64,000 bases of DNA, taken from a phage. The first letter of the stretch is position 1, and each line of letters opens with the position of its first letter. The notes under the pieces were generated by a model that saw only the letters and a program-made list of their open reading frames with translations, was not told where the DNA came from and searched no databases. The stretch lies in the sequence record PZ445534.1. One strand, given 5' to 3'. The position numbers and the translations under genes were made by a program. This document shows positions 29,921 through 60,526 of the stretch, in pieces.

Positions 29921-30199
29921 ATGGCTAAAGAAAAGTGGGAGATTTTACCATTAGTCAGTGAAGGAGGTAATGGTTGTGAAATGTACATGATACGTGGTCA
30001 TGTTCCAGAGCCAATTGCACTTGAGATGGTAAACAACTTTACAGATGGTTCTTACAAAGACTTAGGCGAACCAACTGTCAAGCAACAATGGGTTAAACCT
30101 GTACCAGACAGCACAGGTAACTGTAGTGTACTTTATCACGTTGTAGACCCTGCAAAATGCAAATCTGCAATGGCAGTAACAAACGTAACTTTTGATTGA
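29921..30199 (+). CDS. hypothetical protein
   Basis: 92-aa ORF. Confidence 0.3.
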   Translation: MAKEKWEILPLVSEGGNGCEMYMIRGHVPEPIALEMVNNFTDGSYKDLGEPTVKQQWVKPVPDSTGNCSVLYHVVDPAKCKSAMAVTNVTFD

Positions 30200-31092
30200 G
30201 AGAGAAAACTATGAAAACTGTTATTGAAGCCGTCATCACCGCTCAAGAGAAATTCTTCCACACAGAAAAATTTAATATCATTCAATTCCCATCTGGAGAA
30301 ATTGGTGGAAACTTCTCTGAAGATTTTGTTAAGTTTACTGAGCGTAATGCCGGTAAGATTGATAATGTTATAATTACTGTACAGGGATATGACAAAGATA
30401 CACTGTTTGCATTAGCTTTGGCTAAGGATGCCGTTGACAGTCTTGTTCCCCAGAAATCAGCGATGAAAACCGTTGTTTTCGGGTTCTTACCAAATGCTCG
30501 ATATGACCGCCACATGTTCAAAGGTGATGCAGCAGCACTGAAAGTCTTTGCCAACCTAGTTAATGCAATGGGTTTTGATGCAGTATGTGCTCTTGACCCT
30601 CATAGTAATGTTGCAGAAAACTTATTTAAGTGCTTTCAAAGCATGAAGCAAAAAGATGTGGCAGTACACTTTGCAAGTGACCCACGCATTGATTTCTTGG
30701 TAGCCCCAGATGCAGGTGCAGCTAAGAAGACTGAAGATACCGCTAAAGAGGTGGATAAACCGTATATCACAATGTCTAAGGTGCGCAATCTTAAGACTGG
30801 AGAAATCACTGGTATGCGAATCCTAGACGATGTTGATTTGACCGATAAAACTGTCATGATTCTTGATGATATCTGTGATGGTGGTCGAACCTTCGTAGAG
30901 GCAGCTAAACACCTACGTGAAGCAGGTGCAAAACGTGTGGAACTCTATGTAACTCATGGTATTTTCTCTAAAGGTGTTGAAAACTTACTTGACAACGGTA
31001 TTGACCATATCTACACTACAAACACCTTAGGTGAAGCTAAAGACCGTGGCTTAACACATTACGCCCAAGTTACTGTAGCAACCATTGATTGA
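30196..31092 (+). CDS. ribose-phosphate pyrophosphokinase (Prs)-family protein; candidate ADP-ribose pyrophosphate synthetase (Adps-like)
   Basis: PRTase-type motif VMILDDICDGGRT and NARYDR (cf. Prs GYARQDR); adjacent to NAMPT-like gene. Confidence 0.7.
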   Translation: MREKTMKTVIEAVITAQEKFFHTEKFNIIQFPSGEIGGNFSEDFVKFTERNAGKIDNVIITVQGYDKDTLFALALAKDAVDSLVPQKSAMKTVVFGFLPNARYDRHMFKGDAAALKVFANLVNAMGFDAVCALDPHSNVAENLFKCFQSMKQKDVAVHFASDPRIDFLVAPDAGAAKKTEDTAKEVDKPYITMSKVRNLKTGEITGMRILDDVDLTDKTVMILDDICDGGRTFVEAAKHLREAGAKRVELYVTHGIFSKGVENLLDNGIDHIYTTNTLGEAKDRGLTHYAQVTVATID

Positions 31093-31141
31093 AACTTTAT
31101 ATGGGCTTGAAAGCCCCACTTTGAGAGAGAGAGATTAAAAG

Positions 31142-32923
31142 ATGACTAAATCACTTTACGCAGTACCAGCAGGTCTTAATGCAGATGCTTACAAGGCATC
31201 ACATATATATCAGTATCCAGATGCTACGCAATATCTTATGTTGAACCTGACACCACGTAGTGATAAATGGTTTAACAGCCCTTTGGCAATTGACGGTGTA
31301 GTGGCTTTTGGTATTCAACGTTTCGTTAAAGATTACTTGATAGACCACTGGAACGCCACTTTCTTTGAACGTGATAAAAAAGAAGCCATTGATGAAATCT
31401 TAGAAGTCATGAATGGTGTTCTGGGTAAAGATGCTATCGGTCGAGAGCACTGGGAAGCACTTCACGACTTAGGTTATCTACCAGTTGAAGTATACGCTGT
31501 AGAAGAAGGTACAGTTGTCCCTATGCGCGTCCCAATGATTGTCTTCCAGAACACTGTTTCAGGCTTCCATTGGGTAGCGGGGTATCTGGAAGATGCTTTC
31601 TCTGCTGAGATTTGGAAGGCTTGTACCATTGCAACTATTGCATTGCACTACAAACGTATCTGTAAGAAGTGGGCTGACCTTACTTGTGACAACGACTTGC
31701 ATTTGCCTTATCAGTGCCATGACTTTGCTATGCGTGGTATGTCCGGCTTTACTGATGACGCATTTAACGCTGTAGGCCACTTAACCAGCTTTAAAGGAAC
31801 TGATAGCTTCCCTGCTGTGTATACGGCTAAACGAATCTATGGACAGTCCTACCCAATCTCTGATATTGGTAGCTCTGTACCAGCCACTGAGCACTCTGTA
31901 ATGTGTGCAAACATTGCTTGGGAAGGTGGTAATGAGTTGATTGAAGAAGAAAGACGCTTTAAAGGTGAGTTACAAACCTTCCGTCGTTTCTTAACAGAAA
32001 CTTACCCAACTGGTATTGCAAGTGTTGTTTCAGACACTTATAACTTCTGGAGAACTGTGTCAGAAATTTTACCAGCACTTCGTAAAGAAATTATGGAACG
32101 TGATGGCAAACTGGTAATTCGTCCTGACTCTGGAGACCCTGTACATATTGTCACAGGTTATAAAGCAATCCACTTAGAATGTGCTAAAAAGGCTTATTAC
32201 GAGCACCTAAGCAAGCTGGAAGCCAGTGACACAATGTTGAATGCTGTTCTGAACATGAAGCTTGAAAATATCAACTATGGTATTGCTGGATGGCTACTGT
32301 CAGAAGGCTACGAAATGGTTGTTGACAGAGAAGACTTTGAAGTTGCTGATACAGTGATGTTGAAAAATGCTTATATGGTTGGTTCTGCAAACGTTGTAAC
32401 ACGTCCTGTAGCTGAGATTGATGGAGCTATTAAGACACTGTACAACATCTTCGGAGGGACTATTAACTCTAAAGGGTTTAAGGTACTGGATGAGCACATC
32501 GGCCTTATCTATGGTGACTCTATCACGCTGGAACGTGCAAACGAAATCCTGAAGCGTCTGTATGAAATGGGTTTTGCAAGCTCTAACGTAGTGTTTGGTG
32601 TAGGCTCTTACACTTACCAGTACATGACTCGTGACACCTTTGCATTTGCTGTCAAAGCAACTCTTGCAAGCATTGGTGGTAAAGAGATTATGCTTGCAAA
32701 AGACCCTAAAACAGATAGTGGTGTTAAGAAATCTGCCTTTGGTGGTGTAGCACCTATGTGGGATGGTGATAAGCTGAAAGCTGTAGATGGCTATGGATTC
32801 CAGAGTTTTGCAGATGTACTTGACCACCAAGCTTGTGCTTTACGTTTAGTCTTTAGCGACTCTGAGCAGTTCGGTTATACAACTCTTGGAGATATTCGAA
32901 ATAATATTGACAAGCAGCTTTAA
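31142..32923 (+). CDS. nicotinamide phosphoribosyltransferase-family protein (NAMPT/NadV-like; candidate Namat)
   Basis: 593-aa ORF with NadV-like N-terminus ...NADAYKASHIYQYP... Confidence 0.75.
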   Translation: MTKSLYAVPAGLNADAYKASHIYQYPDATQYLMLNLTPRSDKWFNSPLAIDGVVAFGIQRFVKDYLIDHWNATFFERDKKEAIDEILEVMNGVLGKDAIGREHWEALHDLGYLPVEVYAVEEGTVVPMRVPMIVFQNTVSGFHWVAGYLEDAFSAEIWKACTIATIALHYKRICKKWADLTCDNDLHLPYQCHDFAMRGMSGFTDDAFNAVGHLTSFKGTDSFPAVYTAKRIYGQSYPISDIGSSVPATEHSVMCANIAWEGGNELIEEERRFKGELQTFRRFLTETYPTGIASVVSDTYNFWRTVSEILPALRKEIMERDGKLVIRPDSGDPVHIVTGYKAIHLECAKKAYYEHLSKLEASDTMLNAVLNMKLENINYGIAGWLLSEGYEMVVDREDFEVADTVMLKNAYMVGSANVVTRPVAEIDGAIKTLYNIFGGTINSKGFKVLDEHIGLIYGDSITLERANEILKRLYEMGFASSNVVFGVGSYTYQYMTRDTFAFAVKATLASIGGKEIMLAKDPKTDSGVKKSAFGGVAPMWDGDKLKAVDGYGFQSFADVLDHQACALRLVFSDSEQFGYTTLGDIRNNIDKQL

Positions 32924-37154: not shown

Positions 37155-37703
37155 ATGAAGAAATTGATTCTAGGTTTGTGCTTAATGTTTACAGCACACT
37201 TATCTTATGCAGTTGACTGCCCAGAGCTATCAATTAGCCAAAAAGTAAACATGTTAAAAGCTTACCAGTATGGTGAGAATAACATGGGTAAAGGTTGGGG
37301 TATCACTCTAGCTGCTATAGCCTTACAAGAGTCAGAGTTAGGTCTGAAGGTAGAGAATAAAAAGACACATGACTATGGTATTTTCCAGAATCACTTGAAG
37401 ACTGTTGTAAAGCGTAACAAAATCAGTCCTAATGTGGCTAAAAAGAAACTCTTAAAAGATTTTGATTATGCTGCGAAGGAAACGCACAAAGAACTTGAGT
37501 TTTGGACAAAGGTGCATGGTCAGCCAAAGTCAAAGAAGGCTTTACAAAAAGTTTTAGCATCTTATAATGCTGGGTATTCGTACAGAATCCCTAAAGCTAA
37601 GAAATATTCTCAAGATGTCTATAACAATATGAAAGTAATTGCTCAATGTGAATTTGCAACAAACATTTCTAAGGTAAACCATGAAAAAATTAAGAAAGTC
37701 TGA
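37155..37703 (+). CDS. secreted lytic transglycosylase-like protein
   Basis: Signal peptide MKKLILGLCLMFTAHLSYA; ALQESELG ... DYGIFQ resembles SLT domain ES / GLMQ motifs. Confidence 0.35.
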   Translation: MKKLILGLCLMFTAHLSYAVDCPELSISQKVNMLKAYQYGENNMGKGWGITLAAIALQESELGLKVENKKTHDYGIFQNHLKTVVKRNKISPNVAKKKLLKDFDYAAKETHKELEFWTKVHGQPKSKKALQKVLASYNAGYSYRIPKAKKYSQDVYNNMKVIAQCEFATNISKVNHEKIKKV

Positions 37704-38376
37704 TGAAGTACTGTGTCATGCTTATGACTTACATCCTCATGAGTTGGGTCTTGATTCCTGTGTATGGACTCCAGAACAGTGTAGAGACTTTGAAGACACC
37801 GCAAGAGAAGTTGTATGTTCACTTGAAGAGTTCCACACATCAGAACCAATTGTGAACGTTGTGGACAAAGAGACTGGGCAATCCATAGGTGTAAAACGTG
37901 ATAGCTTAGTCATAGTCAACAAAGACCTTGTAGAGAAAGGTAATCTTATCTTAGCAGATATTGATGGAGTTCTTACAAATTTTAATCACGAAGATTGTTC
38001 AACGGAATTGACTGATGGTTCATTTTCACAGTACACTAATCTTCTTGATTCTGTAAGAGCAAAACCAACGTATGTTTTCAATATCATTGATGCAATTGCT
38101 AATCATGCTGCCGTTGGACTCTTGACAGCGAGAGGCGAATCTCAGAGAATACCCACTGAGATGTTTTTAAGGCATAACACAGAGCATAACTACATGCTTT
38201 TTATGCGTGGTTTTGGTACTAACTCTATAAGTGCAGAAAGTTTGAAAGTGAGGATGATTCAGTCTTGCATTCTGCCTTACTTTAATATAGTATGTTTTAT
38301 AGAAGATACAGAGAAGAATGTGCAGAAGGTGAACAGAATCCTTCCACACATCAAAACCATGTTAGTTAAACATTGA
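37681..38376 (+). CDS. hypothetical protein
   Basis: 231-aa ORF. Confidence 0.35.
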   Translation: MKKLRKSDEVLCHAYDLHPHELGLDSCVWTPEQCRDFEDTAREVVCSLEEFHTSEPIVNVVDKETGQSIGVKRDSLVIVNKDLVEKGNLILADIDGVLTNFNHEDCSTELTDGSFSQYTNLLDSVRAKPTYVFNIIDAIANHAAVGLLTARGESQRIPTEMFLRHNTEHNYMLFMRGFGTNSISAESLKVRMIQSCILPYFNIVCFIEDTEKNVQKVNRILPHIKTMLVKH

Positions 38377-40009: not shown

Positions 40010-40211
40010 AAAGACACGGAAAATTATCCGGTCAGCAGTATTTATTGGAAGAAATGAAGTGATTCCTTTTACAGCAAATGATGTGATAGTCTACAGGAAA
40101 AAATTAGCATTCAGTTATTGCTTACGTGGCTTTATCTCCCAGCCATTAGAAGATTTTAAAAATCGTTGTGGTAAAGGCATCATCATTCAAGAGGCAATTA
40201 TTCATGGCTGA
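39984..40211 (+). CDS. hypothetical protein
   Basis: 75-aa ORF. Confidence 0.25.
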   Translation: MKVILARDKKTRKIIRSAVFIGRNEVIPFTANDVIVYRKKLAFSYCLRGFISQPLEDFKNRCGKGIIIQEAIIHG

Positions 40212-40404
40212 CTTCTGTAAAGATTGTTCTATCGAAATGTTCGGACGTGATACAGGTGACTTAAAAGGTCTTATCACTGAAGATGACTTTAAAGCTGGTT
40301 ATGCAATGCCAGTAATCTGTGAAGGTTGTGGGTGCATCTGGGTAGACCACGAAGGGCAGCGTGTAAAACCTTCAGAAGATAAAGAATCTTGGGAGAGATG
40401 TTAA
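40168..40404 (+). CDS. hypothetical Cys-rich small protein
   Basis: CxxC...CxxC pattern; start may be internal ATG at 40204. Confidence 0.3.
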   Translation: MVKASSFKRQLFMADFCKDCSIEMFGRDTGDLKGLITEDDFKAGYAMPVICEGCGCIWVDHEGQRVKPSEDKESWERC

Positions 40405-41190
40405 ATGGGTATTGTAAAAATCATCAATGGCGATATCTTTGCCGCATTTGATAAAGGTAAGTTTGACATTATTGGTCACGGTTGCAACTGTATGAATTTA
40501 ATGGGTGCAGGTATCGCTGACAAGATTTCTAAACTTTACCCAAAAGCATATGAGACAGATACAGAAGTCTATCTATATGCAGGTGGCATAGGTCACAAAC
40601 CCTGTGAAAATTTACTGGGTAATTTCTCTGTAGCACGTTTAAAACAAGGTCGTATAGCTAACCTTTACACTCAGCTTAAGACTGGTAAAGATGCCCGATA
40701 CAGTGCTTTAGAGTCATCTTTGAAGCAACTTAACAGATACTGTGAAGTTAATCAGTTGAAGAAAGTTGGTTTACCTATGATTGGTGCAGGTATCGGTGGA
40801 CTTGACCCTCAAGCCGTCACAGTTATCATCAATCAGGTGATGAAGAGCGTAGATGTTTATCTATATGTCTATGAAGGAGAGATGTACCATAAGTTACTCT
40901 CAGGTTGGAAGAACTACTGTGAACCAGAATACTTTGCAGGTGTAGCAGTGTTCACAGATAACGCAGTTACCCTCTTCAGACGAAGAAAAGGTAAGATACA
41001 TCAAAGTAACCCTCCGGTTGAAAAGATGTCTCTAAGTAACGCTCTAGTTACCCACCTGTCAAAGAGCAATCACAGAATTGCTGTAACATTTGGTAGTGAT
41101 GCAGAAGCTTATATCTATGCAAGAACTGATGAGGATATTGAGGCAATCTTCTCTTCACCAGAAGTTACCTTCTTAGACGCAAAGAACTAA
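40405..41190 (+). CDS. macrodomain protein (TARG1/OARD1-like ADP-ribose hydrolase fold) with C-terminal extension
   Basis: INGDIFAA...IIGHGCNCMNLMGAGIA and GLPMIGAGIGGLD match TARG1 motifs as recalled (GDLFAC...HCISEDCRMGAGIA and MPRIGCGLDRL). Confidence 0.6.
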   Translation: MGIVKIINGDIFAAFDKGKFDIIGHGCNCMNLMGAGIADKISKLYPKAYETDTEVYLYAGGIGHKPCENLLGNFSVARLKQGRIANLYTQLKTGKDARYSALESSLKQLNRYCEVNQLKKVGLPMIGAGIGGLDPQAVTVIINQVMKSVDVYLYVYEGEMYHKLLSGWKNYCEPEYFAGVAVFTDNAVTLFRRRKGKIHQSNPPVEKMSLSNALVTHLSKSNHRIAVTFGSDAEAYIYARTDEDIEAIFSSPEVTFLDAKN

Positions 41191-41254
41191 GAAACTCTGT
41201 AGGATATTCACAATAGACTAAGCCTTTCTTATCTGGTAAATTTTTCAGGTAAGG

Positions 41255-41500
41255 AGGGCTTTTTCATTTCAGATTTGTGCAGGTAGAGTTCTGTAGAGAA
41301 ATCTATAGAGAAAATTTTGAACTCCAAAGAGAAAATTCATTCTCAAACTGTGCAGGTAATCTCCAAAGAGCTTTTTCATTTTCAAAACGTGCAGACCCCG
41401 CTCAGGTCGGGCAAGAAAAATCATTTTAGAATTGTGCAGGTAGGTTTTTATAGACAGCCAGCCCAACCCCTCTCCCCCTCTTACTCCCCCTCTCCCCAAA
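41255..41500. repeat. four tandem imperfect direct repeats (TTCATTTTCA-N4-6-GTGCAGGTA core) followed by a C-rich tract
   Basis: Repeat copies near 41257, 41330, 41368, 41413; C-rich run CCCAACCCCTCTCCCCCTCTTACTCCCCCTCTCCCC at 41461-41497. Confidence 0.6.
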
Positions 41501-41618
41501 AGTCAAGAGAAAAATTTGTAGCGGATTGAAAAATAATTCTTGATTTGCGTTCTGTTTTGTGGTAGTCGTGCGCACCCGTTTCATTACAGTTTTGCCAAAA
41601 ATATTTTTAAAATTTTTA

Positions 41619-41647
41619 TTGACTCTTTGAACGTGGTTATCTAATAT
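41619..41647 (+). promoter_or_regulatory. sigma70-like promoter, type B cassette (TTGACT-17-TAATAT) followed by 5' leader hairpin
   Basis: -35 41619-41624, -10 41642-41647; hairpin GGAGAGGGAATAACCTTCCCC just downstream. Confidence 0.55.
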
Positions 41648-41713
41648 TTGCATCAACGGAGAGGGAATAACCTTCCCCACTAAATAACTAACCTTAAACT
41701 AGGAGACTCTAAA

Positions 41714-42094
41714 ATGGCATATCGTGCACCTAAATTCATCAATAAAGACAACTTTCGCAACGCACTGGAGAAGGCACTTGATGAGAATTTCAAAGGTAAC
41801 GTTATCGTTGTTCACTCGTTCAATTTCAAGTATGATATCAACGGGAACAAAATCAACCACTACACTGCAACCATGCTAGATGGTACACTATCAAGTGAAA
41901 AAGCCGTACTGAATGCACTAGCAGGACGCGGAAAAGTATTAGTAAGATGTGATAAGAGACGTTATCAAGGCGGCGCATATGGTTACGACGATGCTATTTA
42001 TCATCTTGAAAATATGGGCTATCAAGTAGAAAAAGCTGGGGTATCACAAATCATCGGTAGTGATGGCTACGTGACAATCTTCAAAATTAAATAA
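41714..42094 (+). CDS. early-array small protein 1, hypothetical
   Basis: 126-aa ORF with strong SD (AACTAGGAGACTCTAAAATG). Confidence 0.5.
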   Translation: MAYRAPKFINKDNFRNALEKALDENFKGNVIVVHSFNFKYDINGNKINHYTATMLDGTLSSEKAVLNALAGRGKVLVRCDKRRYQGGAYGYDDAIYHLENMGYQVEKAGVSQIIGSDGYVTIFKIK

Positions 42095-42101
42095 AAAGTA
42101 C

Positions 42102-42130
42102 TTTACAAGGGGCTTATAGTTCGATAAAGT
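42102..42130 (+). promoter_or_regulatory. sigma70-like promoter, type A cassette (TTTACA-17-TAAAGT) overlapping hairpin GGGGCTTA...TAAGCCCC
   Basis: -35 42102-42107, -10 42125-42130; hairpin 42109-42137. Confidence 0.5.
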
Positions 42131-42182
42131 AAGCCCCAGATAAAGAGCTTTACCACTAAATCCTAAATTGGAGAACTTAAAA

Positions 42183-42473
42183 ATGGCTACTATCAAAAAC
42201 GTTGTAATTCCTGCAAAAACTCGTGATGACGCTCGCATTATGGCTAAAAAGTTAGGCGGGAAAGTGGTTGACAACGGAAAACAATCTGCTGTAAGATGGG
42301 GCGTGAAGACTGATAGACAGTTGAAGTTAAAAAATTCACCAATAAACCTTTTTACATGTGTAAACACTATCGGGAAGACAAATGTATACACGAAAAAGGC
42401 ATATATTAGACGCGTAGCCTTAACATCCCCCATTCGTACAATGAGAGGTTATGCAAAACTGAAAATTAACTGA
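42183..42473 (+). CDS. early-array small protein 2, hypothetical basic protein
   Basis: ATG 42183 after GGAGA SD; ORF track starts at upstream TTG. Confidence 0.5.
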   Translation: MATIKNVVIPAKTRDDARIMAKKLGGKVVDNGKQSAVRWGVKTDRQLKLKNSPINLFTCVNTIGKTNVYTKKAYIRRVALTSPIRTMRGYAKLKIN

Positions 42474-42482
42474 TAAAGTACT

Positions 42483-42511
42483 TTACAGGGGGCTTAAAAG
42501 TTGGTATCTTA
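42483..42511 (+). promoter_or_regulatory. sigma70-like promoter, type A cassette (TTTACA-17-TATCTT) overlapping hairpin
   Basis: Hairpin GGGGCTTAA...TTAAGCCCC between -35 and -10. Confidence 0.5.
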
Positions 42512-42561
42512 AGCCCCAGATAAAGAGCTTTACCACTAAATCCTAAACTGGAGATTCAAAA

Positions 42562-43074
42562 ATGAAAACTGTAGACGCTACCTTTGAAGTTGTAAAAGAA
42601 AAATTCACCATTATCTATGAAGCGGTAAATTGCTACGAAGCAAGCCATAACCTTGATAATTGGAAGTTTACAGATGACCATCAAGGCGGCGTGACTGTTA
42701 AAAATCCTAACTATCAGCATAATGCATTTAAATATGCAATCCCTTTGCATTACAGCCTTAAACAGCTTTCAAGTGACTATGCAAAACAAGGCCGGGAAAA
42801 TCCATCGAAAGAGGCTTACACCAGCTTACAGAAAGAACTAGAAAGAGATTTAGAGGCTTCAGAATACAACCTTGCCGCGAAAGTTGTGGATGCAAACGGT
42901 AACACGGTTTTAGAAAGTTTTTATCTTGGTTATGCTTTCGATTGGTGCTATCGTGACGGCGATGATTTAGAGGATAGACTAAAAGAAGAGGTGAACAATT
43001 CAGACGCAGAAACTGAAGTATTAGAACGTTTGGAATCGTTGAAAGACTCAGTGATGAATATCTTTAAGAACTAA
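42562..43074 (+). CDS. early-array small protein 3, hypothetical
   Basis: 170-aa ORF with conserved leader and SD. Confidence 0.5.
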   Translation: MKTVDATFEVVKEKFTIIYEAVNCYEASHNLDNWKFTDDHQGGVTVKNPNYQHNAFKYAIPLHYSLKQLSSDYAKQGRENPSKEAYTSLQKELERDLEASEYNLAAKVVDANGNTVLESFYLGYAFDWCYRDGDDLEDRLKEEVNNSDAETEVLERLESLKDSVMNIFKN

Positions 43075-43084
43075 ATAGCTTTCT

Positions 43085-43113
43085 TTACACGGGGTTATCA
43101 AGCTGGTAGGATA
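43085..43113 (+). promoter_or_regulatory. sigma70-like promoter, type A cassette (TTTACA-17-TAGGAT) overlapping hairpin
   Basis: Hairpin GGGGTTATC...GATAGCCCC keeps pairing via U.G wobble. Confidence 0.45.
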
Positions 43114-43166
43114 GCCCCAGATAAAGAGATTTATCAAATAAAGCCCTTAAACTAGGAGATTCTAAA

Positions 43167-43463
43167 ATGAAATTATCAAATCAAGTGCGTGAAAATCTGA
43201 GCAAATTACTCAACAAAATTGATTTCATTGAAACATCAAGGAATAGTCATGATGTTATGGAATGGTTACACGGCAAAATAAAAGGCCGTCGTGTAGTGAT
43301 TTGCTTATGGAATAGTTGCAGGGAATATAAAAAACCTGTATTGCAAGTTAATATTTATGATGATACTTTTAAAAGTCCTGTAAAGTCTAAAAGCGATTTA
43401 TTAGAATCCTATGAGATAACTGTAAATGGCAAAGTATCACGTAAAGAGGAAACACCATGTTAA
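43167..43463 (+). CDS. early-array small protein 4, hypothetical
   Basis: 98-aa ORF. Confidence 0.5.
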   Translation: MKLSNQVRENLSKLLNKIDFIETSRNSHDVMEWLHGKIKGRRVVICLWNSCREYKKPVLQVNIYDDTFKSPVKSKSDLLESYEITVNGKVSRKEETPC

Positions 43464-43789
43464 TGACTGGTATCACTGCAATCATTGCCATTTTCGCGCT
43501 ATATAAGGCATATAAAGCCTATAATCTAGCAAATAAGGCAATCACACAGCAGGTCAGCAATAACCTTGTAGAGAGCTTTCTAGGGCGTCTCAGTGATGAG
43601 CAAATAAAGCGGCTAGAGATGAGCTTCAGATACAAAGCGAAAACCTATCAGATAAGTGACATCTTCAAAGATGATTTTCAGTTAATCGATGATTATAATT
43701 CACTAATAAATGCTTTAAATATCAGTGACTTAAAAGACTACTACGCTGTAATTGTTCAAGAATTGAGCAAACGAAAACAAAACTGTTGA
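43457..43789 (+). CDS. early-array small protein 5, membrane-anchored hypothetical
   Basis: N-terminal TM ITAIIAIFALY; start overlaps previous stop (ATGTTAATGA). Confidence 0.45.
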   Translation: MLMTGITAIIAIFALYKAYKAYNLANKAITQQVSNNLVESFLGRLSDEQIKRLEMSFRYKAKTYQISDIFKDDFQLIDDYNSLINALNISDLKDYYAVIVQELSKRKQNC

Positions 43790-43814
43790 CACTGGTTTTT
43801 AGATAGATTAAATT
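43786..43814 (+). promoter_or_regulatory. sigma70-like promoter, type B cassette (TTGACA-17-TAAATT)
   Basis: -35 43786-43791, -10 43809-43814, hairpin GGGGAGGGAATGACCTTCCCC at 43825-43845. Confidence 0.6.
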
Positions 43815-43879
43815 ACACATCAACGGGGAGGGAATGACCTTCCCCACTAAATAAAGTCCTTAAACTAGGAGATTCTAAA

Positions 43880-44152
43880 ATGTATACTACTAACAACGGT
43901 CGCACTTTAAATGTCACACTACGTCACTATGTAGATGGTGTCATGCACTTTGAAGACTTACAAGCTGAGCAACATATCTTAGATTGGCAAGTAGCAGGAC
44001 TCCAAAAAACTGCTACGGGATACGGTAAAAAGATTCCAACCAGTTGGAAAGTACACTACGAAGGACGTTTGCGCAGAATTTATCAGGATGTGCAAAGCAA
44101 TAGCGCATCGAGTTACATTATAGTAAAAGGCAAAAAACTGCATTTAATGTAA
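43880..44152 (+). CDS. early-array small protein 6, hypothetical
   Basis: 90-aa ORF. Confidence 0.5.
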   Translation: MYTTNNGRTLNVTLRHYVDGVMHFEDLQAEQHILDWQVAGLQKTATGYGKKIPTSWKVHYEGRLRRIYQDVQSNSASSYIIVKGKKLHLM

Positions 44153-53623: not shown

Positions 53624-54088
53624 TTACTTTGGGTATACACTGTCAAGATAAATGTCAGCTTCCATTCTACGTCTGTTTTTCAGTCCGTTTGAAGTGACCT
53701 TCTTACCTTTGACTGTAACCTTGTTCCACCACTGCATAGCTTCTGCACAACCCACCTTATTACCAGCATTGTGGCGCTTGATAAATGTGGAATCCTGCAT
53801 AGCTGTGATACCAATGTTGTATGTTTCACTTACAAGTGCGTCAAACTCATTCTGAGAAGTTGGAACATTGACGGCTTTGTTCACTGCTGCAACAAACTTT
53901 TCAACATCTGCGAGAAGATACTGTTCAGCTTGTTCAGCGGTAATCTTCATACCCATCTTAACAGGTTTTCCGTCAATACGGATTGTCCCATACCCGATTG
54001 TTGGGATTCCGGCAGAATCTTCGTAAGCCTCTAACTTCAGACCTTCAAAGAACTTAATAGCTTCTAAACCTTTTCTTGAGAGTTGCAT
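53624..54088 (-). CDS. endolysin (T4 lysozyme-like glycoside hydrolase)
   Basis: LEAIKFFEGLKLEAYEDSAGIPTIGYGT matches the phage lysozyme catalytic region (E...D...TIGYG). Confidence 0.85.
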   Translation of the reverse strand: MQLSRKGLEAIKFFEGLKLEAYEDSAGIPTIGYGTIRIDGKPVKMGMKITAEQAEQYLLADVEKFVAAVNKAVNVPTSQNEFDALVSETYNIGITAMQDSTFIKRHNAGNKVGCAEAMQWWNKVTVKGKKVTSNGLKNRRRMEADIYLDSVYPK

Positions 54089-54972
54089 TATGCCTCCCCT
54101 GCTGGATTAACTGTAACTGTTGCTGCATTAGATGTTACAGAGCCACCTGCGCCAGTAACTACACAGGTGTAGCTTCCTGAATCAGCAGCGGTTGCTCCTT
54201 CTTTGGTGTAGGTTGCAGTAGTTGCATCGAGGATGTCTTCCTCATCTTTCTTCCACTGATAACCTGTTGCACCTGTTGCCACAACATTCAACGTTAAGGT
54301 CTCACCTTCATTGATTTCTTGATTGGTTGGCTGTTGAGTGATGACAGGAAGTGCATTCACAGTCACTGTTGCTGCATCTGAGGTAACACTTGTTCCACCC
54401 TCTCCAGATACAACACAAGTGTATGAACCAGCATCAGAAGGTGCTACTGACTGTTTTGTGTAAGTTGCAGAATTGGCACTAGGGATGTCCTCACCATCCT
54501 TCTTCCACTGATATCCAGTGGCGTTAGTTGCTAGAATGCTTAGAGTAAGTGTGCCACCCTCATTGACTGTTTGACCTGTCGGTTGCTGAGTAATTGCTGG
54601 TGGCTTAATAGCATCCTTCAACTTAGCATTCAACATTGAGAACGGCTTAACTCTTGCCAACCATTCACAGTAAATTGTGTCAACATCTTTACCATTGATG
54701 ATTGCATACTGCAAATCCATGAAGAAATCAGCAGTTCTCATCTGTGCACCAACACTGTAAAGCAATTCATCACTAAATGGAACTTTGTAGTCTGGTTTGT
54801 AGTCAAACTTCTCAACTTCTGCAATATCAGCTTCAGGCCAATATGAACTATAGGTAAGTGGTAAAATAGCCTCTTGATATGTTCTAAAATCATACCTCTT
54901 ACCAGCCTTTACATTTGCAATGAAACCCTTCACAAACTCTTTGAAGTCTGGGTAAGTCTTTGCTTTAATCAT
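54088..54972 (-). CDS. protein with N-terminal domain paralogous to 54969-55340 and two Ig-like (Big-type) repeats
   Basis: Duplicated ITQQPT-N-QxxNEGxTLTLxxxATxATGYQWKKD...SYTCVV repeats. Confidence 0.5.
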   Translation of the reverse strand: MIKAKTYPDFKEFVKGFIANVKAGKRYDFRTYQEAILPLTYSSYWPEADIAEVEKFDYKPDYKVPFSDELLYSVGAQMRTADFFMDLQYAIINGKDVDTIYCEWLARVKPFSMLNAKLKDAIKPPAITQQPTGQTVNEGGTLTLSILATNATGYQWKKDGEDIPSANSATYTKQSVAPSDAGSYTCVVSGEGGTSVTSDAATVTVNALPVITQQPTNQEINEGETLTLNVVATGATGYQWKKDEEDILDATTATYTKEGATAADSGSYTCVVTGAGGSVTSNAATVTVNPAGEA

Positions 54973-57050: not shown

Positions 57051-58466
57051 ATGAGCGAGTTATTTAAACATGCGCACCTTCATGCAGGTCGAACTGAAAA
57101 TGGTGCTGTAAACCATACTTCATCAATGTCTGCTCTGGTAGACTTCTACAAAGCCGCTGGCTCAAGCCGTAGCAATGTAGAAGTCTTACCAGACCTGTTC
57201 TACAAAGCTTTGCGTGAGGATGTTGATGTTGCAGTTCGTATTTTACTGCATATGCGAGATGTACGAGAGGGTATGGGTGAGCGTAAAGCCTTCCGAACTG
57301 TTTTACTTCAAGCAATTGAAGATAAGGTTTTAGAACCTACACAGGTTCTTCGCATTATGGATAAGATTGCAGAACTTGGTCGTTTTGATGACTTCAAAAT
57401 CTTCGTAGGTACTCGTTTTGAGACAGATGCCTTCAAACATTTAGAAGCAGCATTACTAGACCCTGCAACAGCAGGTTTGGCAGCTAAGTGGTTACCACGA
57501 GTCAAACCACGTCATAAGCAGTTTGTAAAACGTTTCTGCAAGTTTGCCAACTTGAGTGAGAAAGAGTACCGCACACTGTTGTCTGCACTATCTGATACAG
57601 TTGAGCAAAAAATCTCTGCTAATGAGTTTGGTAAGATTGACTACAGTAAGATTCCTTCACTTGCTGCTGCACGTTACCAAAAACTGTTTAACCGTAAAGA
57701 TGGAGAGCGTTACAAAGCTTACATCGAGTCCTTATCAAAAGGTGAGACTAAGATTAACGCTGGTGCTGTTTACCCATACGATGTGATTAAATCTGTCAAG
57801 TATGGTAATGCAGATGTTGCTAATGAGCAGTGGAAAGCACTACCAAACTGGATGGCAGAAGGTGAAAACATCTTGTGTATGTCTGATGTATCAAGTTCAA
57901 TGTCTTGGGTGAATTTTGGCTCCATTACTGCTCTGGATATTGGTGTATCACTTGCCTTGTATGTAGCAGAACGCAATACAGGTTGCTTTAAGAATGAGTT
58001 AATGGTTTATTCAACAAACCCTCACTTCATCGAACTGAGTGGTGATTTACGAAACCGTCATCGTCAGGTGATGCGACACGTTGAATATGGCTCAACTAAC
58101 TTACAAGCAGCTTTTGACCGCATTCTTGAAACAGGTAAAAGAAACAACTTGACTCAGAAAGATATGCCAAGTAAGCTTATCATCTTCTCCGATATGGAGT
58201 TCAATCAGGTTGATGGAGCTAACGGTCGTACAAACTTTGAAGCAATTCAGAGTAAGTACAAAAAAGCTGGATATGAGATGCCACAACTGGTATTCTGGTA
58301 CTTAGCAAACCGTAATGGTACTTGCGAAGTATCTGTTAAGGATAACGGTGTAGCAATGTTATCAGGGTTCTCTCCAGCCACTTTAAAAGCTCTGCTTGGT
58401 GGTGAGAAGTTTGACCCAATCAGTGTAATGCTCAAAGCAGTAATGATTGACCGTTATATCTGGTAA
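57051..58466 (+). CDS. von Willebrand factor A domain protein (DUF2828/TROVE-like?)
   Basis: MIDAS-like CMSDVSSSMSW (DxSxS); N-terminal TENGAVNHTSS segment. Confidence 0.45.
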   Translation: MSELFKHAHLHAGRTENGAVNHTSSMSALVDFYKAAGSSRSNVEVLPDLFYKALREDVDVAVRILLHMRDVREGMGERKAFRTVLLQAIEDKVLEPTQVLRIMDKIAELGRFDDFKIFVGTRFETDAFKHLEAALLDPATAGLAAKWLPRVKPRHKQFVKRFCKFANLSEKEYRTLLSALSDTVEQKISANEFGKIDYSKIPSLAAARYQKLFNRKDGERYKAYIESLSKGETKINAGAVYPYDVIKSVKYGNADVANEQWKALPNWMAEGENILCMSDVSSSMSWVNFGSITALDIGVSLALYVAERNTGCFKNELMVYSTNPHFIELSGDLRNRHRQVMRHVEYGSTNLQAAFDRILETGKRNNLTQKDMPSKLIIFSDMEFNQVDGANGRTNFEAIQSKYKKAGYEMPQLVFWYLANRNGTCEVSVKDNGVAMLSGFSPATLKALLGGEKFDPISVMLKAVMIDRYIW

Positions 58467-58622: not shown

Positions 58623-58699
58623 AAAGTTTATCTCTGTTTAGCTCAGCTTGGTAGAGCGTTCCGTTTGGGGCGGTAAGGCCGGAGGTTCAAGTCCTCCAA
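58623..58699 (+). tRNA. tRNA-Pro (anticodon TGG)
   Basis: Acceptor CTCTGTT/AACAGAG, D-arm AGCTCAGCTTGGTAGAGC, T-arm GGAGGTTCAAGTCCTCC, encoded CCA; one anticodon-stem mismatch. Confidence 0.7.
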
Positions 58700-58706
58700 C
58701 AGAGAC

Positions 58707-58784
58707 CAAATTAATGTTCCAGTAGACAAAATGGTATAGTCACCACTCTTTCAAAGTGGATATCTGAGGGTTCAAATCCCTTCT
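58707..58784 (+). tRNA. tRNA-Glu (anticodon TTC)
   Basis: Acceptor GTTCCAG/CTGGAAC, anticodon arm CCACT-CTTTCAA-AGTGG, T-loop TTCAAAT, CCA. Confidence 0.7.
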
Positions 58785-58786
58785 GG

Positions 58787-58866
58787 AACGCCAGTTTTGA
58801 CAGAAGACCAATTACAGCAAACTTAATCTACTCATCTGAAAGTTAATCGGACAAAGAAGATATTTG
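58787..58866 (+). repeat. inter-tRNA repeat element copy 1 (ACAGAAGACC-N4-TACAGCAA ... GGTCTGG)
   Basis: Conserved 5' and 3' motifs shared with copies at 58953, 59347, 59437. Confidence 0.6.
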
Positions 58867-58875
58867 GTCTGGTCA

Positions 58876-58951
58876 TTAAGAATTGCGGGTATAGAGAAAG
58901 GGCGTCTCACATGTCTCATTAGCATGGTATCGGCAGGTTCGACTCCTGCAC
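58876..58951 (+). tRNA. tRNA with CAT anticodon (Met/fMet/Ile2), irregular acceptor pairing
   Basis: D-arm GAGA-AAGGGCG-TCTC, anticodon arm CATGT-CTCATTA-GCATG, T-arm GCAGGTTCGACTCCTGC; acceptor 6 of 7 pairs. Confidence 0.5.
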
Positions 58952-58952
58952 C

Positions 58953-59025
58953 CGCCTCCAAATTTACAGAAGACCGTTTACAGCAATATTTATTAAATTT
59001 TTAGCGGAAAAATTGAAAGATACGG
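58953..59025 (+). repeat. inter-tRNA repeat element copy 2
   Basis: ACAGAAGACCGTTTACAGCAA ... ACGGTCTGGT. Confidence 0.6.
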
Positions 59026-59034
59026 TCTGGTAAT

Positions 59035-59108
59035 ACTAAATATGGTTAGGAAGCACATAAGGTATGTGCGGTCGCCTGTTAAGCGAATGGCACAGGGTTC
59101 GAATCCCT
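59035..59108 (+). tRNA. tRNA-Asn (anticodon GTT)
   Basis: Acceptor GGTTAGG/ACTAACC, D-arm GCAC-ATAAGGTAT-GTGC, anticodon loop CTGTTAA, T-arm CAGGGTTCGAATCCCTG; no encoded CCA. Confidence 0.6.
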
Positions 59109-59119
59109 GACTAACCGCA

Positions 59120-59207
59120 AAATTAAATGTGTCGTTATCCCGTAGATGGTAGCGGTGGGGACTGTAAATCCCTTGTCATTGAGACTCGGTAGGTTCGACT
59201 CCTACAC
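59120..59207 (+). tRNA. tRNA-Tyr (anticodon GTA), long variable arm
   Basis: Acceptor GTGTCGT/ACGGCAC, anticodon arm GGGGA-CTGTAAA-TCCCT, T-arm GTAGGTTCGACTCCTAC, CCA. Confidence 0.65.
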
Positions 59208-59212
59208 GGCAC

Positions 59213-59289
59213 ACCAATAAAGGCTATGTAGTTTAACTGGAGAAAATACTCCCCTGTCACGGGAGATGATGTGAGTTCAAGTCTCATCG
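59213..59289 (+). tRNA. tRNA-Asp (anticodon GTC)
   Basis: Acceptor GGCTATG/CGTAGCC, anticodon arm CTCCC-CTGTCAC-GGGAG, T-loop TTCAAGT, CCA. Confidence 0.7.
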
Positions 59290-59346
59290 TAGCCGCCAAT
59301 TTTGAGAGGGCTATTTAGCCCCTCCCTTAAAGAGTTCTTACGAGTA

Positions 59347-59428
59347 TTCTTTAAAGGAGCAGAAGACCAAATACAGCAAGAATGTATGATATTTTCAAGC
59401 CAATTCAATTTTGAAAAATTTAAAACTT
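59347..59428 (+). repeat. inter-tRNA repeat element copy 3
   Basis: CAGAAGACCAAATACAGCAA ... CTTGGTCTGGC. Confidence 0.55.
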
Positions 59429-59436
59429 GGTCTGGC

Positions 59437-59572
59437 TCAACAAATTTACAGAAGACCGTTTACAGCAAAACTTAAACAATCTATTTCTCGGTAAAGAAAA
59501 GGCGAAGGTTCGATTCCTTCACTCGGCAGAGGTCGAGTTGGTGTAATGGTAGCACTTAAGATGATAAACAAC
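59437..59572 (+). repeat. inter-tRNA repeat element copy 4 enclosing tRNA halves in permuted order
   Basis: ACAGAAGACCGTTTACAGCAA ... [anticodon-arm-like + T-arm GAAGGTTCGATTCCTTC + 3' acceptor ACTCGGC] GAG [5' acceptor GTCGAGT + D-arm GTGTAATGGTAGCAC] ... ACGGTCTGGT. Confidence 0.5.
59474..59547 (+). other. tRNA-like segments in 3'-half then 5'-half order (permuted tRNA or recombinant tRNA fragments)
   Basis: 3' acceptor ACTCGGC (59512-59518) is complementary, with one G.U, to GTCGAGT (59523-59529) located 4 nt downstream. Confidence 0.4.
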
Positions 59573-59721
59573 GGTCTGGTAATTATCTTTGCAGTAGCTT
59601 ATGTGGCTAATTATGTCGTCCCATGAGTGCCGATGAATTTCCTTAGCATGATTCTAGATTAGCTTAATAGGAAATGACTCTACAGACCCTTTAGCAAGGT
59701 CTGCGTAGGTTACTGCAAAGA

Positions 59722-59797
59722 TGATTTAATGGAAGTGTAGCAGAATGGTGATGCGGCAGACTTTTAATCTGACAGGCGATGGGTTCGAATCCCTCCA
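59722..59797 (+). tRNA. tRNA-Lys (anticodon TTT)
   Basis: Acceptor GGAAGTG/CACTTCT, anticodon loop CTTTTAA, T-loop TTCGAAT with weak T-stem, CCA; homologous to tRNA at 60957. Confidence 0.55.
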
Positions 59798-59802
59798 CTT
59801 CT

Positions 59803-59879: not shown

Positions 59880-59881
59880 GA

Positions 59882-59957: not shown

Positions 59958-59972
59958 ACAGTACCAATTTCA

Positions 59973-60513: not shown

Positions 60514-60526
60514 CCCATGCCAAAGT

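What the first reader, a model, noticed from the sequence alone, without database searches (positions are those of the whole stretch)
40405..41190. TARG1/OARD1-like macrodomain protein
The N-terminal 150 aa carry GD(I/L)FA, H(G)C-N-C-M-x-x-MGAGIA and P-M-IGAGIGGLD motifs colinear with TARG1-type macrodomains, which hydrolyse ADP-ribose conjugates. With the NAD+ reconstitution pair and a possible ADP-ribosyltransferase-like protein in the same window, this suggests a phage toolkit centred on NAD+ and ADP-ribose, for example reversal of host ADP-ribosylation-based defence. The roughly 110-aa C-terminal extension is unassigned.
Basis: partly seen in the sequence, partly recalled or inferred. Interest (0 to 1): 0.6.

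Follow-up and report, generated by a model that had tools for sequence, protein, structure and literature searches.

The report
Phage macrodomain hydrolase with orphan tail
This Felix O1-type phage gene encodes a genuine ADP-ribose-processing macrodomain that most likely undoes bacterial ADP-ribose/NAD+-based defences, fused to a roughly 100-residue domain of unknown fold found only in this phage lineage; it is a credible but not surprising anti-defence gene.

Summary
The ORF (40405..41190, +, 261 aa) is real and residues 1-157 form a macrodomain. Pfam Macro scores above its cut-off, the AF2 model is confident (pLDDT 90), and the best fold matches are TARG1, DarG and Poa1p. The window is a Felixounavirus; more than 200 phages carry the gene, annotated "phosphatase" or "macro domain".

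It is not mechanistically TARG1-like. TARG1 Lys84 and Asp125 are replaced by an invariant Gln90 and by Gly131. The invariant His25, Asn28 and Gln90 match the Gln-type active site of SCO6735 (a DarT-modified-DNA hydrolase) and of two phage enzymes in the same PHROG (phrog_335):
- T4 Tk.4/AdfM, which counters DarTG2 (34% identical to the query).
- Vibrio phage Gary Adpp, an ADPR-1''-phosphate phosphatase that feeds the NARP1 NAD+ pathway (27% identical).

This phage carries NARP1 7.5 kb upstream (30196..32923). My best reading is an early anti-defence ADP-ribose-1'' hydrolase, most likely reversing DarT2 DNA modification. The Adpp role is almost as likely, and the two are not exclusive.

The C-terminal 104 residues have no sequence or fold relative. 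They occur only fused to this macrodomain in Ounavirinae-like phages, and are under purifying but relaxed selection. Their function is unknown.

The parts
40405..41190 (+). Complete CDS, 261 aa: macrodomain plus lineage-specific C-terminal domain
   Evidence: ORF listing. phrog_335 match at E 5e-113. 203 phage records carry it at 90-99% nucleotide identity. AF2 pLDDT 90, pTM 0.88.
40405..40875 (+). Macrodomain (residues 1-157), TARG1/DarG/Poa1p class, Gln-type
   Evidence: Pfam PF01661 scores 32.4 bits against a cut-off of 22. Profile versus PDB: TARG1 4e-17, DarG 5e-16, Poa1p 2e-15, SCO6735 4e-15. Foldseek TM 0.86 to TARG1 and 0.81 to DarG. dN/dS 0.01-0.16.
40477..40518 (+). H25-G-C-N28-C...M-G-A-G-I-A38: the His/Asn catalytic motif plus the first Gly-rich loop of the ADP-ribose-binding cleft
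   Evidence: H25, N28, C29, M33, G36 and A38 are invariant. H25 aligns with Poa1p H23 and with Gary Adpp H24, whose H24A mutant loses anti-aRES function. N28 aligns with PhiKZ AdfM N23.
40660..40674 (+). N86-L-Y-T-Q90 motif; Gln90 occupies the position of the TARG1 Lys84 / DarG Lys80 catalytic lysine
   Evidence: N86 and Q90 are invariant in every phage homolog aligned. Q90 aligns with TARG1 K84 and with PhiKZ AdfM K78. SCO6735 Gln85 at the equivalent position is essential.
40774..40800 (+). P124-M-I-G-A-G-I-G-G132: second Gly-rich loop of the ADP-ribose-binding cleft; G131 occupies the TARG1 Asp125 position
   Evidence: P124, G127 and G129 are invariant. The alignment to TARG1 'PRIGCGLD' places G131 opposite D125.
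40876..41187 (+). C-terminal domain (residues 158-261): one helix, a six-strand beta region, one helix; orphan fold
40204..40404 (+). 66-aa CxxC...CxxC zinc-ribbon ORF whose stop abuts the macro start codon (possible partner; context)
   Evidence: Translation and junction sequence. phrog_2210. The same pairing is seen in Felixounavirus, Mooglevirus and Suspvirus.
41220..41261 (+). Terminator-like hairpin (17-bp stem plus T-run) ending the transcription unit
   Evidence: Pattern scan. The wV8 record annotates a Rho-independent terminator at the homologous place.
30196..31092 (+). Adps-like PRPS-family gene (NARP1 step 1); context, relevant to the Adpp hypothesis
   Evidence: Pfam Pribosyltran and Pribosyl_synth, phrog_619. 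39% identical to the Adps of the Thalassavirus NARP1-AP operon. NARP1 was shown experimentally in Bas63.
31142..32923 (+). Namat-like NAMPT-family gene (NARP1 step 2); context
   Evidence: Pfam NAPRTase and NAMPT_N, phrog_448. 37% identical to the Thalassavirus Namat.

Best explanation
The gene encodes an early-expressed anti-defence enzyme. It is an ADP-ribose 1''-hydrolase of the TARG1/DarG/Poa1p (ALC1-like) macrodomain class, but it works through a His25/Asn28/Gln90 site rather than the TARG1 Lys/Asp dyad. In this mechanism Gln90, held in place by Asn28, positions the distal ribose, and water cleaves the bond at C1'', releasing free ADP-ribose. The single most likely job is the one shown genetically for its closest characterised homolog, T4 Tk.4/AdfM, and biochemically for the Gln-type enzyme SCO6735: removing the ADP-ribose that DarT2-type toxins attach to thymidines in single-stranded phage DNA, so that replication can proceed. 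The same active site is expected to dephosphorylate ADPR-1''-phosphate as well; see the first rival, which is not mutually exclusive. The 104-residue C-terminal domain is a lineage-specific accessory, inferred to be a targeting or protein-binding module packed against the macrodomain. Shown here: the macro fold, the class, the conserved residues, homology to AdfM, Adpp and SCO6735, early-region context, and purifying selection on both domains. Inferred: the substrate, the in vivo target and the role of the C-terminal domain.
For: - Macro fold and class.
- H25, N28, Q90, P124 and G127 are invariant across 31 homologs and across the characterised phage enzymes.
- Q90 aligns with TARG1 K84 and PhiKZ AdfM K78; N28 aligns with AdfM N23.
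- SCO6735 has H24, N27, Q85 and G128 and cleaves DarT-made thymidine-ADPr DNA faster than DarG or TARG1. Q85A is dead and N27S nearly dead. Our profile hits SCO6735 at E 4e-15.
- The closest characterised homolog is T4 Tk.4 (34% identity, E 3e-24, same NLYTQ motif), the single HIDEN-SEQ hit needed for T4 growth on DarTG2 cells.
- In the NJ tree the two-domain clade (100% bootstrap) groups, weakly, with Tk.4-type proteins rather than with the NARP1-operon macros.
- The nearest single-domain relatives are not next to NARP1 genes but sit in early regions, one directly after rIIA/rIIB.
- The gene lies in the early rIIA-rIIB region and is the last gene before a terminator.
- An extra domain is easier to rationalise for a macromolecular substrate than for a small molecule (inference).
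Against: - There is no experiment on this protein or on any Ounavirinae ortholog.
- The T4 AdfM evidence is genetic and comes from a preprint; its biochemistry is untested.
- The DarG catalytic Lys is absent.
- The DarG HMM scores the query (48 bits) no higher than verified or NARP1-linked ADPR-1P phosphatases (35-49 bits), against 138 bits for the true DarG-like PhiKZ AdfM.
- Similarity to Tk.4 (82 bits) is barely above that to the Pakpunavirus NARP1-AP macros (68-76 bits), and the deep tree nodes are unsupported.
Confidence: 0.42

Rival explanations
1. Adpp-type role. The macrodomain is an ADPR-1''-phosphate phosphatase. It converts the product of RES-domain (aRES) NAD+ phosphorolysis into ADP-ribose, which the phage's own NARP1 enzymes (Adps 30196..31092, Namat 31142..32923) rebuild into NAD+. 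This would be an unlinked 'NARP1-AP' arrangement. It may coexist with the DNA de-ADP-ribosylation activity.
For: - Gary Adpp is a biochemically verified ADPR-1P phosphatase. It is in the same PHROG (phrog_335) and shares H, N, C, N, Q, P and G with the query.
- Its inactivating H24A mutation hits the residue that aligns with our invariant H25.
- The best PDB sequence match of the N-terminal half is Poa1p, the yeast ADPR-1''P phosphatase, with H25 aligned to H23.
- NARP1 is present 7.5 kb upstream on the same strand and was proven in the Felixounavirus Bas63.
- NARP1 and the two-domain macro co-occur in every Ounavirinae-like lineage sampled, including ones only 33-44% identical.
- 15% of NARP1 phages carry a macro gene within two genes of the pair, and one such macro (phiAbaA1) has the same HGCNC / N-x-YTQ motifs.
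- aRES occurs in E. coli, Klebsiella and Enterobacter.
Against: - The gene is not in the NARP1 operon. It lies about 14 ORFs and at least two terminator-like sites away, and Table S1 of the aRES study lists no Escherichia or Salmonella phage.
- The co-occurrence is part of one large syntenic block, so it is not specific evidence.
- Verified Adpp is only 27% identical and falls in a different, well-supported clade.
- Most phages with this macro type (the T-even phages) lack NARP1 (inference).
- Adpp proteins are single-domain, so the extra domain goes unexplained.
Confidence: 0.35
2. The enzyme acts on another ADP-ribose conjugate. Candidates are ADP-ribosylated RNA (for example CmdTAC-type mRNA modification), ADP-ribosylated proteins, O-acetyl-ADP-ribose from sirtuin-type defences, or Appr-1''-p / ADPR-cyclic-phosphate by-products (of RNA repair, or of the spontaneous decay of the NARP1 intermediate ADPR-PP).
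For: - Macrodomains of this class are promiscuous; SCO6735 also de-ADP-ribosylates protein.
- Some public records name the gene O-acetyl-ADP-ribose deacetylase.
- A PNKP-like RNA-repair gene lies 2 kb upstream.
- ADPR-PP decays to ADPR-cyclic phosphate in Bas63-infected cells.
- A related macrodomain (P0026) carries an additional Pfam PF20274 domain; I recall PF20274 as a cyclic-phosphate-processing receiver (cREC) domain, which I did not verify here.
- Comparative genomics predicts that phage macros mainly target small ADPR derivatives.
Against: - No characterised close homolog has any of these as its physiological role.
- The T4-type PNK/ligase repair pathway does not generate Appr>p (established knowledge).
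- No cyclic phosphodiesterase partner was identified here.
- The public annotations are homology transfers, not tests.
Confidence: 0.13
3. It is a true TARG1/OARD1-type enzyme using the Lys/Asp covalent (Schiff-base) mechanism on glutamate-linked protein ADP-ribose.
For: TARG1 is the top hit by sequence and by fold. K92 and D134 lie two and three residues downstream of the catalytic positions.
Against: TARG1 K84 aligns with Q90, which is invariant in all homologs, and D125 aligns with G131. K92 and D134 are not conserved across the family. TARG1 is also the top PDB hit for Gary Adpp, a verified phosphatase, so being the top hit says nothing specific about mechanism.
Confidence: 0.03
4. It is a non-catalytic ADP-ribose or signal binder (a sponge or sensor), with the C-terminal domain as an effector.
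For: Some macrodomains are readers only. The C-terminal domain is unexplained.
Against: All residues needed for catalysis in SCO6735 and Adpp are invariant and under strong purifying selection (dN/dS 0.01-0.16). Related single-domain proteins are enzymes.
Confidence: 0.04

Closest known systems
T4 Tk.4 = AdfM (anti-DarT factor, macrodomain; HIDEN-SEQ preprint 10.1101/2025.11.20.689424)
   Same: Same PHROG (phrog_335). 34% identity over the whole macrodomain (E 3e-24). Identical HGCNC, NLYTQ and IGAGIG motifs, including Gln in place of the DarG lysine. Both are phage early or non-essential genes.
   Different: Tk.4 is a 155-aa single domain; the Felix O1-type protein adds a 104-aa C-terminal domain. 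T4 has no NARP1, whereas this phage does. The anti-DarTG2 function is shown only for T4, and only genetically.
Adpp, the NARP1-associated ADPR-1''-phosphate phosphatase of Vibrio phage Gary (preprint 10.64898/2026.01.28.702374)
   Same: Same PHROG and the same invariant His/Asn/Gln/Pro/Gly residues. Its H24 (inactivated by H24A) aligns with H25 here. The phage also encodes Adps and Namat.
   Different: Only 27% identical, and in a different clade (N-V-Y-G-Q motif). Adpp sits between Adps and Namat in one operon, whereas this gene is 7.5 kb away. Adpp is a single domain.
SCO6735 of Streptomyces coelicolor (PDB 5E3B) and Bt_1257 (2FG1): Gln-type ALC1-like macrodomains
   Same: Same class. Profile E 4e-15 and 4e-14. 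Same His/Asn/Gln/Gly active-site constellation in place of the Lys or Lys/Asp residues. SCO6735 hydrolyses thymidine-linked ADP-ribose on DNA, and also protein ADP-ribose.
   Different: These are bacterial housekeeping or stress proteins. SCO6735 has a mobile loop five residues longer carrying the DNA-contacting Lys89, and whether that loop has an equivalent here was not resolved. Neither has a C-terminal domain.
Human TARG1/OARD1 (PDB 4J5S)
   Same: Best solved-structure match (Foldseek TM 0.86, profile E 4e-17). Colinear GD(I/L)FA, MGAGIA and P-x-IG-x-G motifs.
   Different: Catalytic Lys84 is replaced by Gln90 and Asp125 by Gly131. About 24% identity. TARG1 is eukaryotic and single-domain.
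DarG antitoxin and the DarG-like chimallivirus AdfM (PhiKZ gp104)
   Same: Same macrodomain class and the same conserved Asn. The NCBIfam and PADLOC DarG models are the only curated family hits (48 bits). PhiKZ AdfM is also in phrog_335.
   Different: DarG and PhiKZ AdfM carry the 'FPTK' lysine (K80 / K78) where this protein has Gln. The DarG model scores 48 bits against a cut-off of 250, and 138 bits for PhiKZ AdfM. There is no DarT-binding C-terminal domain and no adjacent DarT gene.
Yeast Poa1p (PDB 6LFQ), ADP-ribose 1''-phosphate phosphatase
   Same: Best PDB sequence match for the N-terminal half: H-x-C-N-C...G-x-G-I-A...Y-P-K-A, with H25 aligned to H23. Fold TM 0.77. It is the probable source of the public 'phosphatase' annotation.
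   Different: About 23% identity. Poa1p S30 aligns with L32 here. Poa1p is a eukaryotic tRNA-splicing by-product enzyme.

Membership tests
Macro domain superfamily (Pfam PF01661) | HMM score above the curated gathering threshold | tested here: met
   32.4 bits against 22, residues 25-141 covering 2-117 of the 118-position model.
Macro domain superfamily (Pfam PF01661) | Three-layer alpha/beta/alpha macro fold with Gly-rich loops lining the ADP-ribose cleft | tested here: met
   AF2 pLDDT 90. Foldseek probability 1.00 to more than 200 macrodomain structures. The MGAGIA and IGAGIGG loops are invariant or nearly so.
TARG1/OARD1 | Catalytic Lys84 (nucleophile) | tested here: not met
   It aligns with Gln90, which is invariant in 31 homologs.
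TARG1/OARD1 | Catalytic Asp125 | tested here: not met
   It aligns with Gly131.
TARG1/OARD1 | Closest overall sequence and fold similarity | tested here: met
   Top hit. This is not discriminating, because TARG1 is also the top hit for Gary Adpp.
DarG antitoxin (NCBIfam NF048014) | Full-length HMM score above the equivalog cut-off (macrodomain plus DarT-binding C-terminal domain) | tested here: not met
   47.5 bits against a cut-off of 250. Only model positions 4-150 of 338 are matched.
DarG antitoxin (NCBIfam NF048014) | Catalytic Lys80 in the 'FPTK' motif | tested here: not met
   Q90 aligns with K78 of the DarG-like PhiKZ AdfM. The DarG sequences read 'FPTKKHW'.
DarG antitoxin (NCBIfam NF048014) | Conserved Asn22 | tested here: met
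   N28 aligns with PhiKZ AdfM N23 and is invariant.
DarG antitoxin (NCBIfam NF048014) | Adjacent DarT toxin gene | tested here: not met
   The neighbours are small phage early genes in PHROGs of unknown function, with no toxin-sized partner.
Gln-type ALC1-like macrodomains (SCO6735 / Bt_1257) | His24, Asn27, Gln85 and Gly128 active-site constellation | tested here: met
   H25, N28, Q90 and G127/G129 are invariant. Equivalence rests on alignment to TARG1 and AdfM plus the paper's structure-based alignment. The profile hits 5E3B at E 4e-15. I could not print a direct residue-level alignment to 5E3B.
Gln-type ALC1-like macrodomains (SCO6735 / Bt_1257) | Elongated mobile loop with DNA-contacting Lys89 | tested here: inconclusive
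   K92 and K95 follow Q90, and K/R95 is conserved within the two-domain clade, but the loop length and register relative to SCO6735 were not established.
Phage AdfM (T4 Tk.4 type) | Homology to Tk.4 with shared motifs | tested here: met
   34% identity, E 3e-24, over residues 3-157. Same PHROG.
Phage AdfM (T4 Tk.4 type) | Confers resistance to DarTG2 | not testable with these tools
   This needs phage genetics. No published data exist for Felixounaviruses.
Adpp / NARP1-AP | Poa1p-like macrodomain with the catalytic His (Adpp H24) | tested here: met
   H25 aligns with Adpp H24 and Poa1p H23.
Adpp / NARP1-AP | Gene located within the Adps-Namat operon (within two genes) | tested here: not met
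   The macro gene starts 7.5 kb downstream of the Namat stop, with rIIA, rIIB, the PNKP-like gene and about ten small ORFs between them.
Adpp / NARP1-AP | NARP1 (Adps plus Namat) present in the same genome | tested here: met
   30196..31092 and 31142..32923. NARP1 is experimentally defined in Bas63.
Adpp / NARP1-AP | ADPR-1''P phosphatase activity | not testable with these tools
   This needs an enzyme assay.
PHROG phrog_335 ('phosphatase') | HMM match | tested here: met
   E 4.7e-113, residues 1-260. The same PHROG holds Tk.4, Adpp-type proteins and PhiKZ AdfM.

The most novel reading that the evidence does not exclude
The orphan C-terminal domain could be a new toxin- or DNA-binding module. 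That would make this protein a non-homologous analogue of two-domain DarG: an enzyme that erases the modification, joined to a stoichiometric blocker or targeting domain. Meanwhile the macrodomain would release ADP-ribose from both DarT2-modified DNA and aRES-made ADPR-1''P, feeding it to the phage's own NARP1. One protein would then link two counter-defences (against DarTG2 and against aRES) to NAD+ regeneration.
Probability: 0.1. Interest if true: 0.7.

Novelty: new variant of a known kind. Interest (0 to 1): 0.4.

Why it matters
Felix O1-type phages (including Bas63, where NARP1 was discovered) are used in Salmonella and E. coli typing and biocontrol, so their resistance to DarTG2 and to NAD+-depleting systems affects host range.

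If the macrodomain works as an unlinked Adpp, surveys that look only within two genes of NARP1 undercount "NARP1-AP" phages, and the archetypal NARP1 phage would already be aRES-proof. If it works as AdfM, the Gln-type active site shared with SCO6735 would be the general phage solution to DarT2.

The C-terminal domain is a compact, selected module restricted to this lineage with no known relative, so it is a candidate new protein-protein or targeting domain.

None of this changes the basic picture. A macrodomain in a phage early region is expected, and public records already annotate it.

Tried and rejected
1. TARG1-type catalysis. Rejected because both dyad residues are replaced.
3. The C-terminal domain as a known family. 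No Pfam hit and no PDB sequence hit. BFVD returns only its own family. AFDB50 was unavailable.
4. The C-terminal domain as a PQQ/BamB propeller blade. The weak profile hits to long propeller repeat proteins look like a shared beta-hairpin motif, not homology.
5. A standalone C-terminal domain. P0032 and P0039 are truncated fragments of the same fusion protein.
6. Using sequence distance, the tree or DarG-HMM scores to decide between the AdfM and Adpp functions. All were inconclusive, and motif signatures do not separate the two either, since the phiAbaA1 NARP1-AP macro has the Felix/T4-type motifs.
7. Neighbourhoods of distant homologs. The two-domain proteins keep the whole Namat-rII-PNKP-macro block, so the co-occurrence is not specific. 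The single-domain relatives are not linked to NARP1.
8. An ART-like protein in the window. None was found by Pfam in ten ORFs.
9. A structured RNA in the 520-bp gap downstream. No Rfam match.
10. Literature on Felix O1/Bas63 macro proteins or on DarTG versus Bas63. Nothing found.
Full report
**1. Observation**

The ORF is at exactly 40405..41190 on the + strand and is 261 aa long. A GGGAGAG ribosome-binding site lies 8 nt upstream, and the start codon abuts the stop of the preceding 66-aa ORF.

The macrodomain assignment holds at every level I tested:
- Pfam Macro scores 32.4 bits against a gathering score of 22.
- A profile of 31 homologs hits TARG1 at E 4e-17, M. tuberculosis DarG at 5e-16, Poa1p at 2e-15 and SCO6735 at 4e-15.
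- AlphaFold2 gives pLDDT 90 and pTM 0.88.
- Foldseek puts TARG1 (TM 0.86), T. aquaticus DarG (0.81) and Poa1p (0.77) at the top with probability 1.00.

**2. What and where**

The window is a Felixounavirus, a Felix O1-like myovirus. 203 phage records carry the gene at 90-99% nucleotide identity, annotated "phosphatase", "putative phosphatase", "O-acetyl-ADP-ribose deacetylase" or "hypothetical". The macro identity is therefore already in public annotation. The full-length protein matches phrog_335 at E 5e-113.

The gene lies in the early region: rIIA, rIIB, a PNKP-like gene (37681..38376), a run of small ORFs, and then this gene. A strong terminator-like hairpin follows at 41220..41261, and the wV8 record annotates a terminator at the same place.

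**3. Active site: not TARG1-type**

- In both the profile and pairwise alignments, TARG1 Lys84 aligns with Gln90 and Asp125 with Gly131.
- Gln90 sits in an "NLYTQ" motif, and Asn86 and Gln90 are invariant in all homologs.
- I fetched PhiKZ gp104, the DarG-like chimallivirus AdfM. It is a true DarG relative (E 1e-24 to Mtb DarG, motif "FPTK").
- Aligned to it, query N28 matches AdfM N23 and query Q90 matches the putative catalytic K78 (residues named).
- So the lysine of both TARG1 and DarG is missing.

This is not a dead enzyme. SCO6735 (PDB 5E3B) is a member of the same class with His24, Asn27, Gln85 and Gly128. It cleaves DarT-made thymidine-linked ADP-ribose from DNA faster than DarG or TARG1. 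Q85A abolishes activity and N27S nearly does. The N-terminal half of the query matches Poa1p best, with H25 aligned to Poa1p H23.

**4. Characterised phage relatives**

Three experimentally studied phage macros fall in phrog_335.

- **T4 Tk.4.** It has been named AdfM because it is the only T4 gene that becomes essential on DarTG2-expressing cells. It is 34% identical to the query (E 3e-24) and has the same HGCNC, NLYTQ and IGAGIG motifs.
- **Vibrio phage Gary Adpp.** This is a Poa1p-like macro encoded between Adps and Namat. It converts ADPR-1''P, the product of the aRES defence, to ADPR so that NARP1 can rebuild NAD+. Its sequence shares H, N, C, N, Q, P and G with the query. The inactivating H24A mutation corresponds to our H25.
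- **PhiKZ AdfM.** This is the Lys-type, DarG-like enzyme.

The Gln-type site is therefore experimentally compatible with both thymidine-ADPr DNA hydrolysis and ADPR-1''P dephosphorylation.

**5. Which role here?**

This phage has NARP1: an Adps-like gene at 30196..31092 and a Namat-like gene at 31142..32923. NARP1 was discovered in Bas63, a Felixounavirus that also carries this macro gene. However, the macro gene is 7.5 kb and about 14 ORFs downstream, not in the operon. The aRES study's table of NARP1-linked macros lists no Escherichia or Salmonella phage, and its main text does not mention Bas63.

Sequence comparisons do not settle the question:

| Comparison | Result |
|---|---|
| blastp bits, query macro vs Tk.4 | 82 |
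| blastp bits, vs Pakpunavirus NARP1-AP macros | 68-76 |
| blastp bits, vs Gary Adpp | 52 |
| DarG HMM bits: query / JG004 NARP1-AP macro / Gary Adpp / Tk.4 / PhiKZ AdfM | 48 / 49 / 35 / 30 / 138 |

In a neighbour-joining tree the two-domain proteins form a clade with 100% bootstrap support. That clade groups loosely with Tk.4-type proteins, while the NARP1-AP macros form other clades. The deep nodes are unsupported.

Gene neighbourhoods give a mixed signal:
- Distant two-domain homologs (33-44% identical, including Kolesnikvirus) keep the whole Namat-rIIA-rIIB-PNKP-macro block. NARP1 co-occurrence is therefore universal in the lineage but not specific.
- The nearest single-domain relatives are not next to NARP1 genes, and one sits directly after rIIA/rIIB-like genes.

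I therefore rank DarT2 reversal (AdfM-type) slightly ahead at 0.42 and the Adpp role close behind at 0.35. They are not mutually exclusive. I estimate about 0.8 that at least one is true and about 0.3 that both are.

**6. The C-terminal domain (residues 158-261)**

- AF2 predicts a helix, a six-strand beta region and a helix. pLDDT is 81 for the domain alone, and the whole-protein pTM of 0.88 implies it packs against the macrodomain.
- It has no Pfam or PDB sequence match.
- In BFVD it matches only a member of its own family.
- tblastn finds it in 245 records, all Ounavirinae-type. The macrodomain, by contrast, has homologs in 2,856 phage records.
- A profile search of 1.84 billion representative proteins finds it only fused to this macrodomain, apart from spurious propeller repeats.
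- It does not resemble the DarG C-terminal domain and has no conserved charge.
- Its dN/dS is 0.13-0.47 against 0.01-0.16 for the macrodomain, so it is functional but evolves 2-4 times faster.
- Its role is unknown. Targeting or protein binding is an inference only.

**7. Verdict**

But the protein is mechanistically Gln-type rather than TARG1-type, an equally good Adpp/NARP1 reading was missed, and no ART-like partner was found.

The macrodomain is a new member of a known phage family. The fusion to an orphan domain makes the protein a new variant of a known kind. Interest is moderate (0.4). The value lies in clear, cheap experiments on Bas63 rather than in any surprise.

Noticed in passing
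window 40204..40404 (+): A 66-aa ORF with CxxC...CxxC zinc-ribbon motifs (phrog_2210) ends exactly where the macro gene starts. The same abutting pair occurs in Felixounavirus, Mooglevirus and Suspvirus. A different 63-aa CxxC ORF sits in the same position in metagenomic locus L008, but not in Kolesnikvirus or in L007. It may be a functional partner.
   Followed up: partly
window 41191..41713: A 520-bp ORF-poor gap lies after the macro gene. It holds a terminator-like hairpin (41220-41261) followed by degenerate direct repeats of about 34 nt (41264-41454). There is no Rfam match. Some relatives annotate tiny ORFs here.
   Followed up: partly
window 41651..43882: Repeated intergenic cassettes (promoter-like sequence, GC hairpin and ribosome-binding site) sit between the small early genes. 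42076-42174 resembles 42456-42554 (81% identical). 34-nt RBS-containing repeats occur at 41683, 43136 and 43849. A 37-nt repeat occurs at 41651-41687 and 43818-43854.
   Followed up: no
window 37681..38376 (+): A PNKP-like polynucleotide kinase/phosphatase gene (phrog_3970; a weak HAD_PNKP hit in relatives) lies 2 kb upstream. It is conserved in the same block in all Ounavirinae-like relatives.
   Followed up: no
window 57051..58466 (+) and 58632..63556: A 471-aa protein with DUF2828 and DUF7788 (annotated 'RNA-binding protein' in VpaE1) sits immediately upstream of a cluster of 25 tRNA genes.
   Followed up: no
protein P0026: An NLYTQ-type macrodomain (35% identical to the query) also carries a Pfam PF20274 domain, which I recall (not verified here) as a cyclic-phosphate-processing receiver domain. 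If so, some relatives may process cyclic or phosphorylated ADPR derivatives.
   Followed up: no
window 30196..32923 versus 40405..41190: The archetypal NARP1 lineage (Bas63/Felix O1) carries a Poa1p-like macro gene outside the window of two genes on either side that the aRES study used to define NARP1-AP. Such phages would be missed by that survey.
   Followed up: partly
C-terminal domain profile (alignment A2): The N-terminal half of the domain (P-x-x-F-D-G-V...G-K-V-H/W-S) weakly matches the blades of PQQ/BamB-type beta-propellers in long repeat proteins. This is probably a hairpin-motif resemblance only.
   Followed up: partly
window 54088..54972 (-): A 294-aa protein with two immunoglobulin-like domains (Pfam Ig_3 and Ig_2), probably a virion decoration or tail-associated protein.
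   Followed up: no
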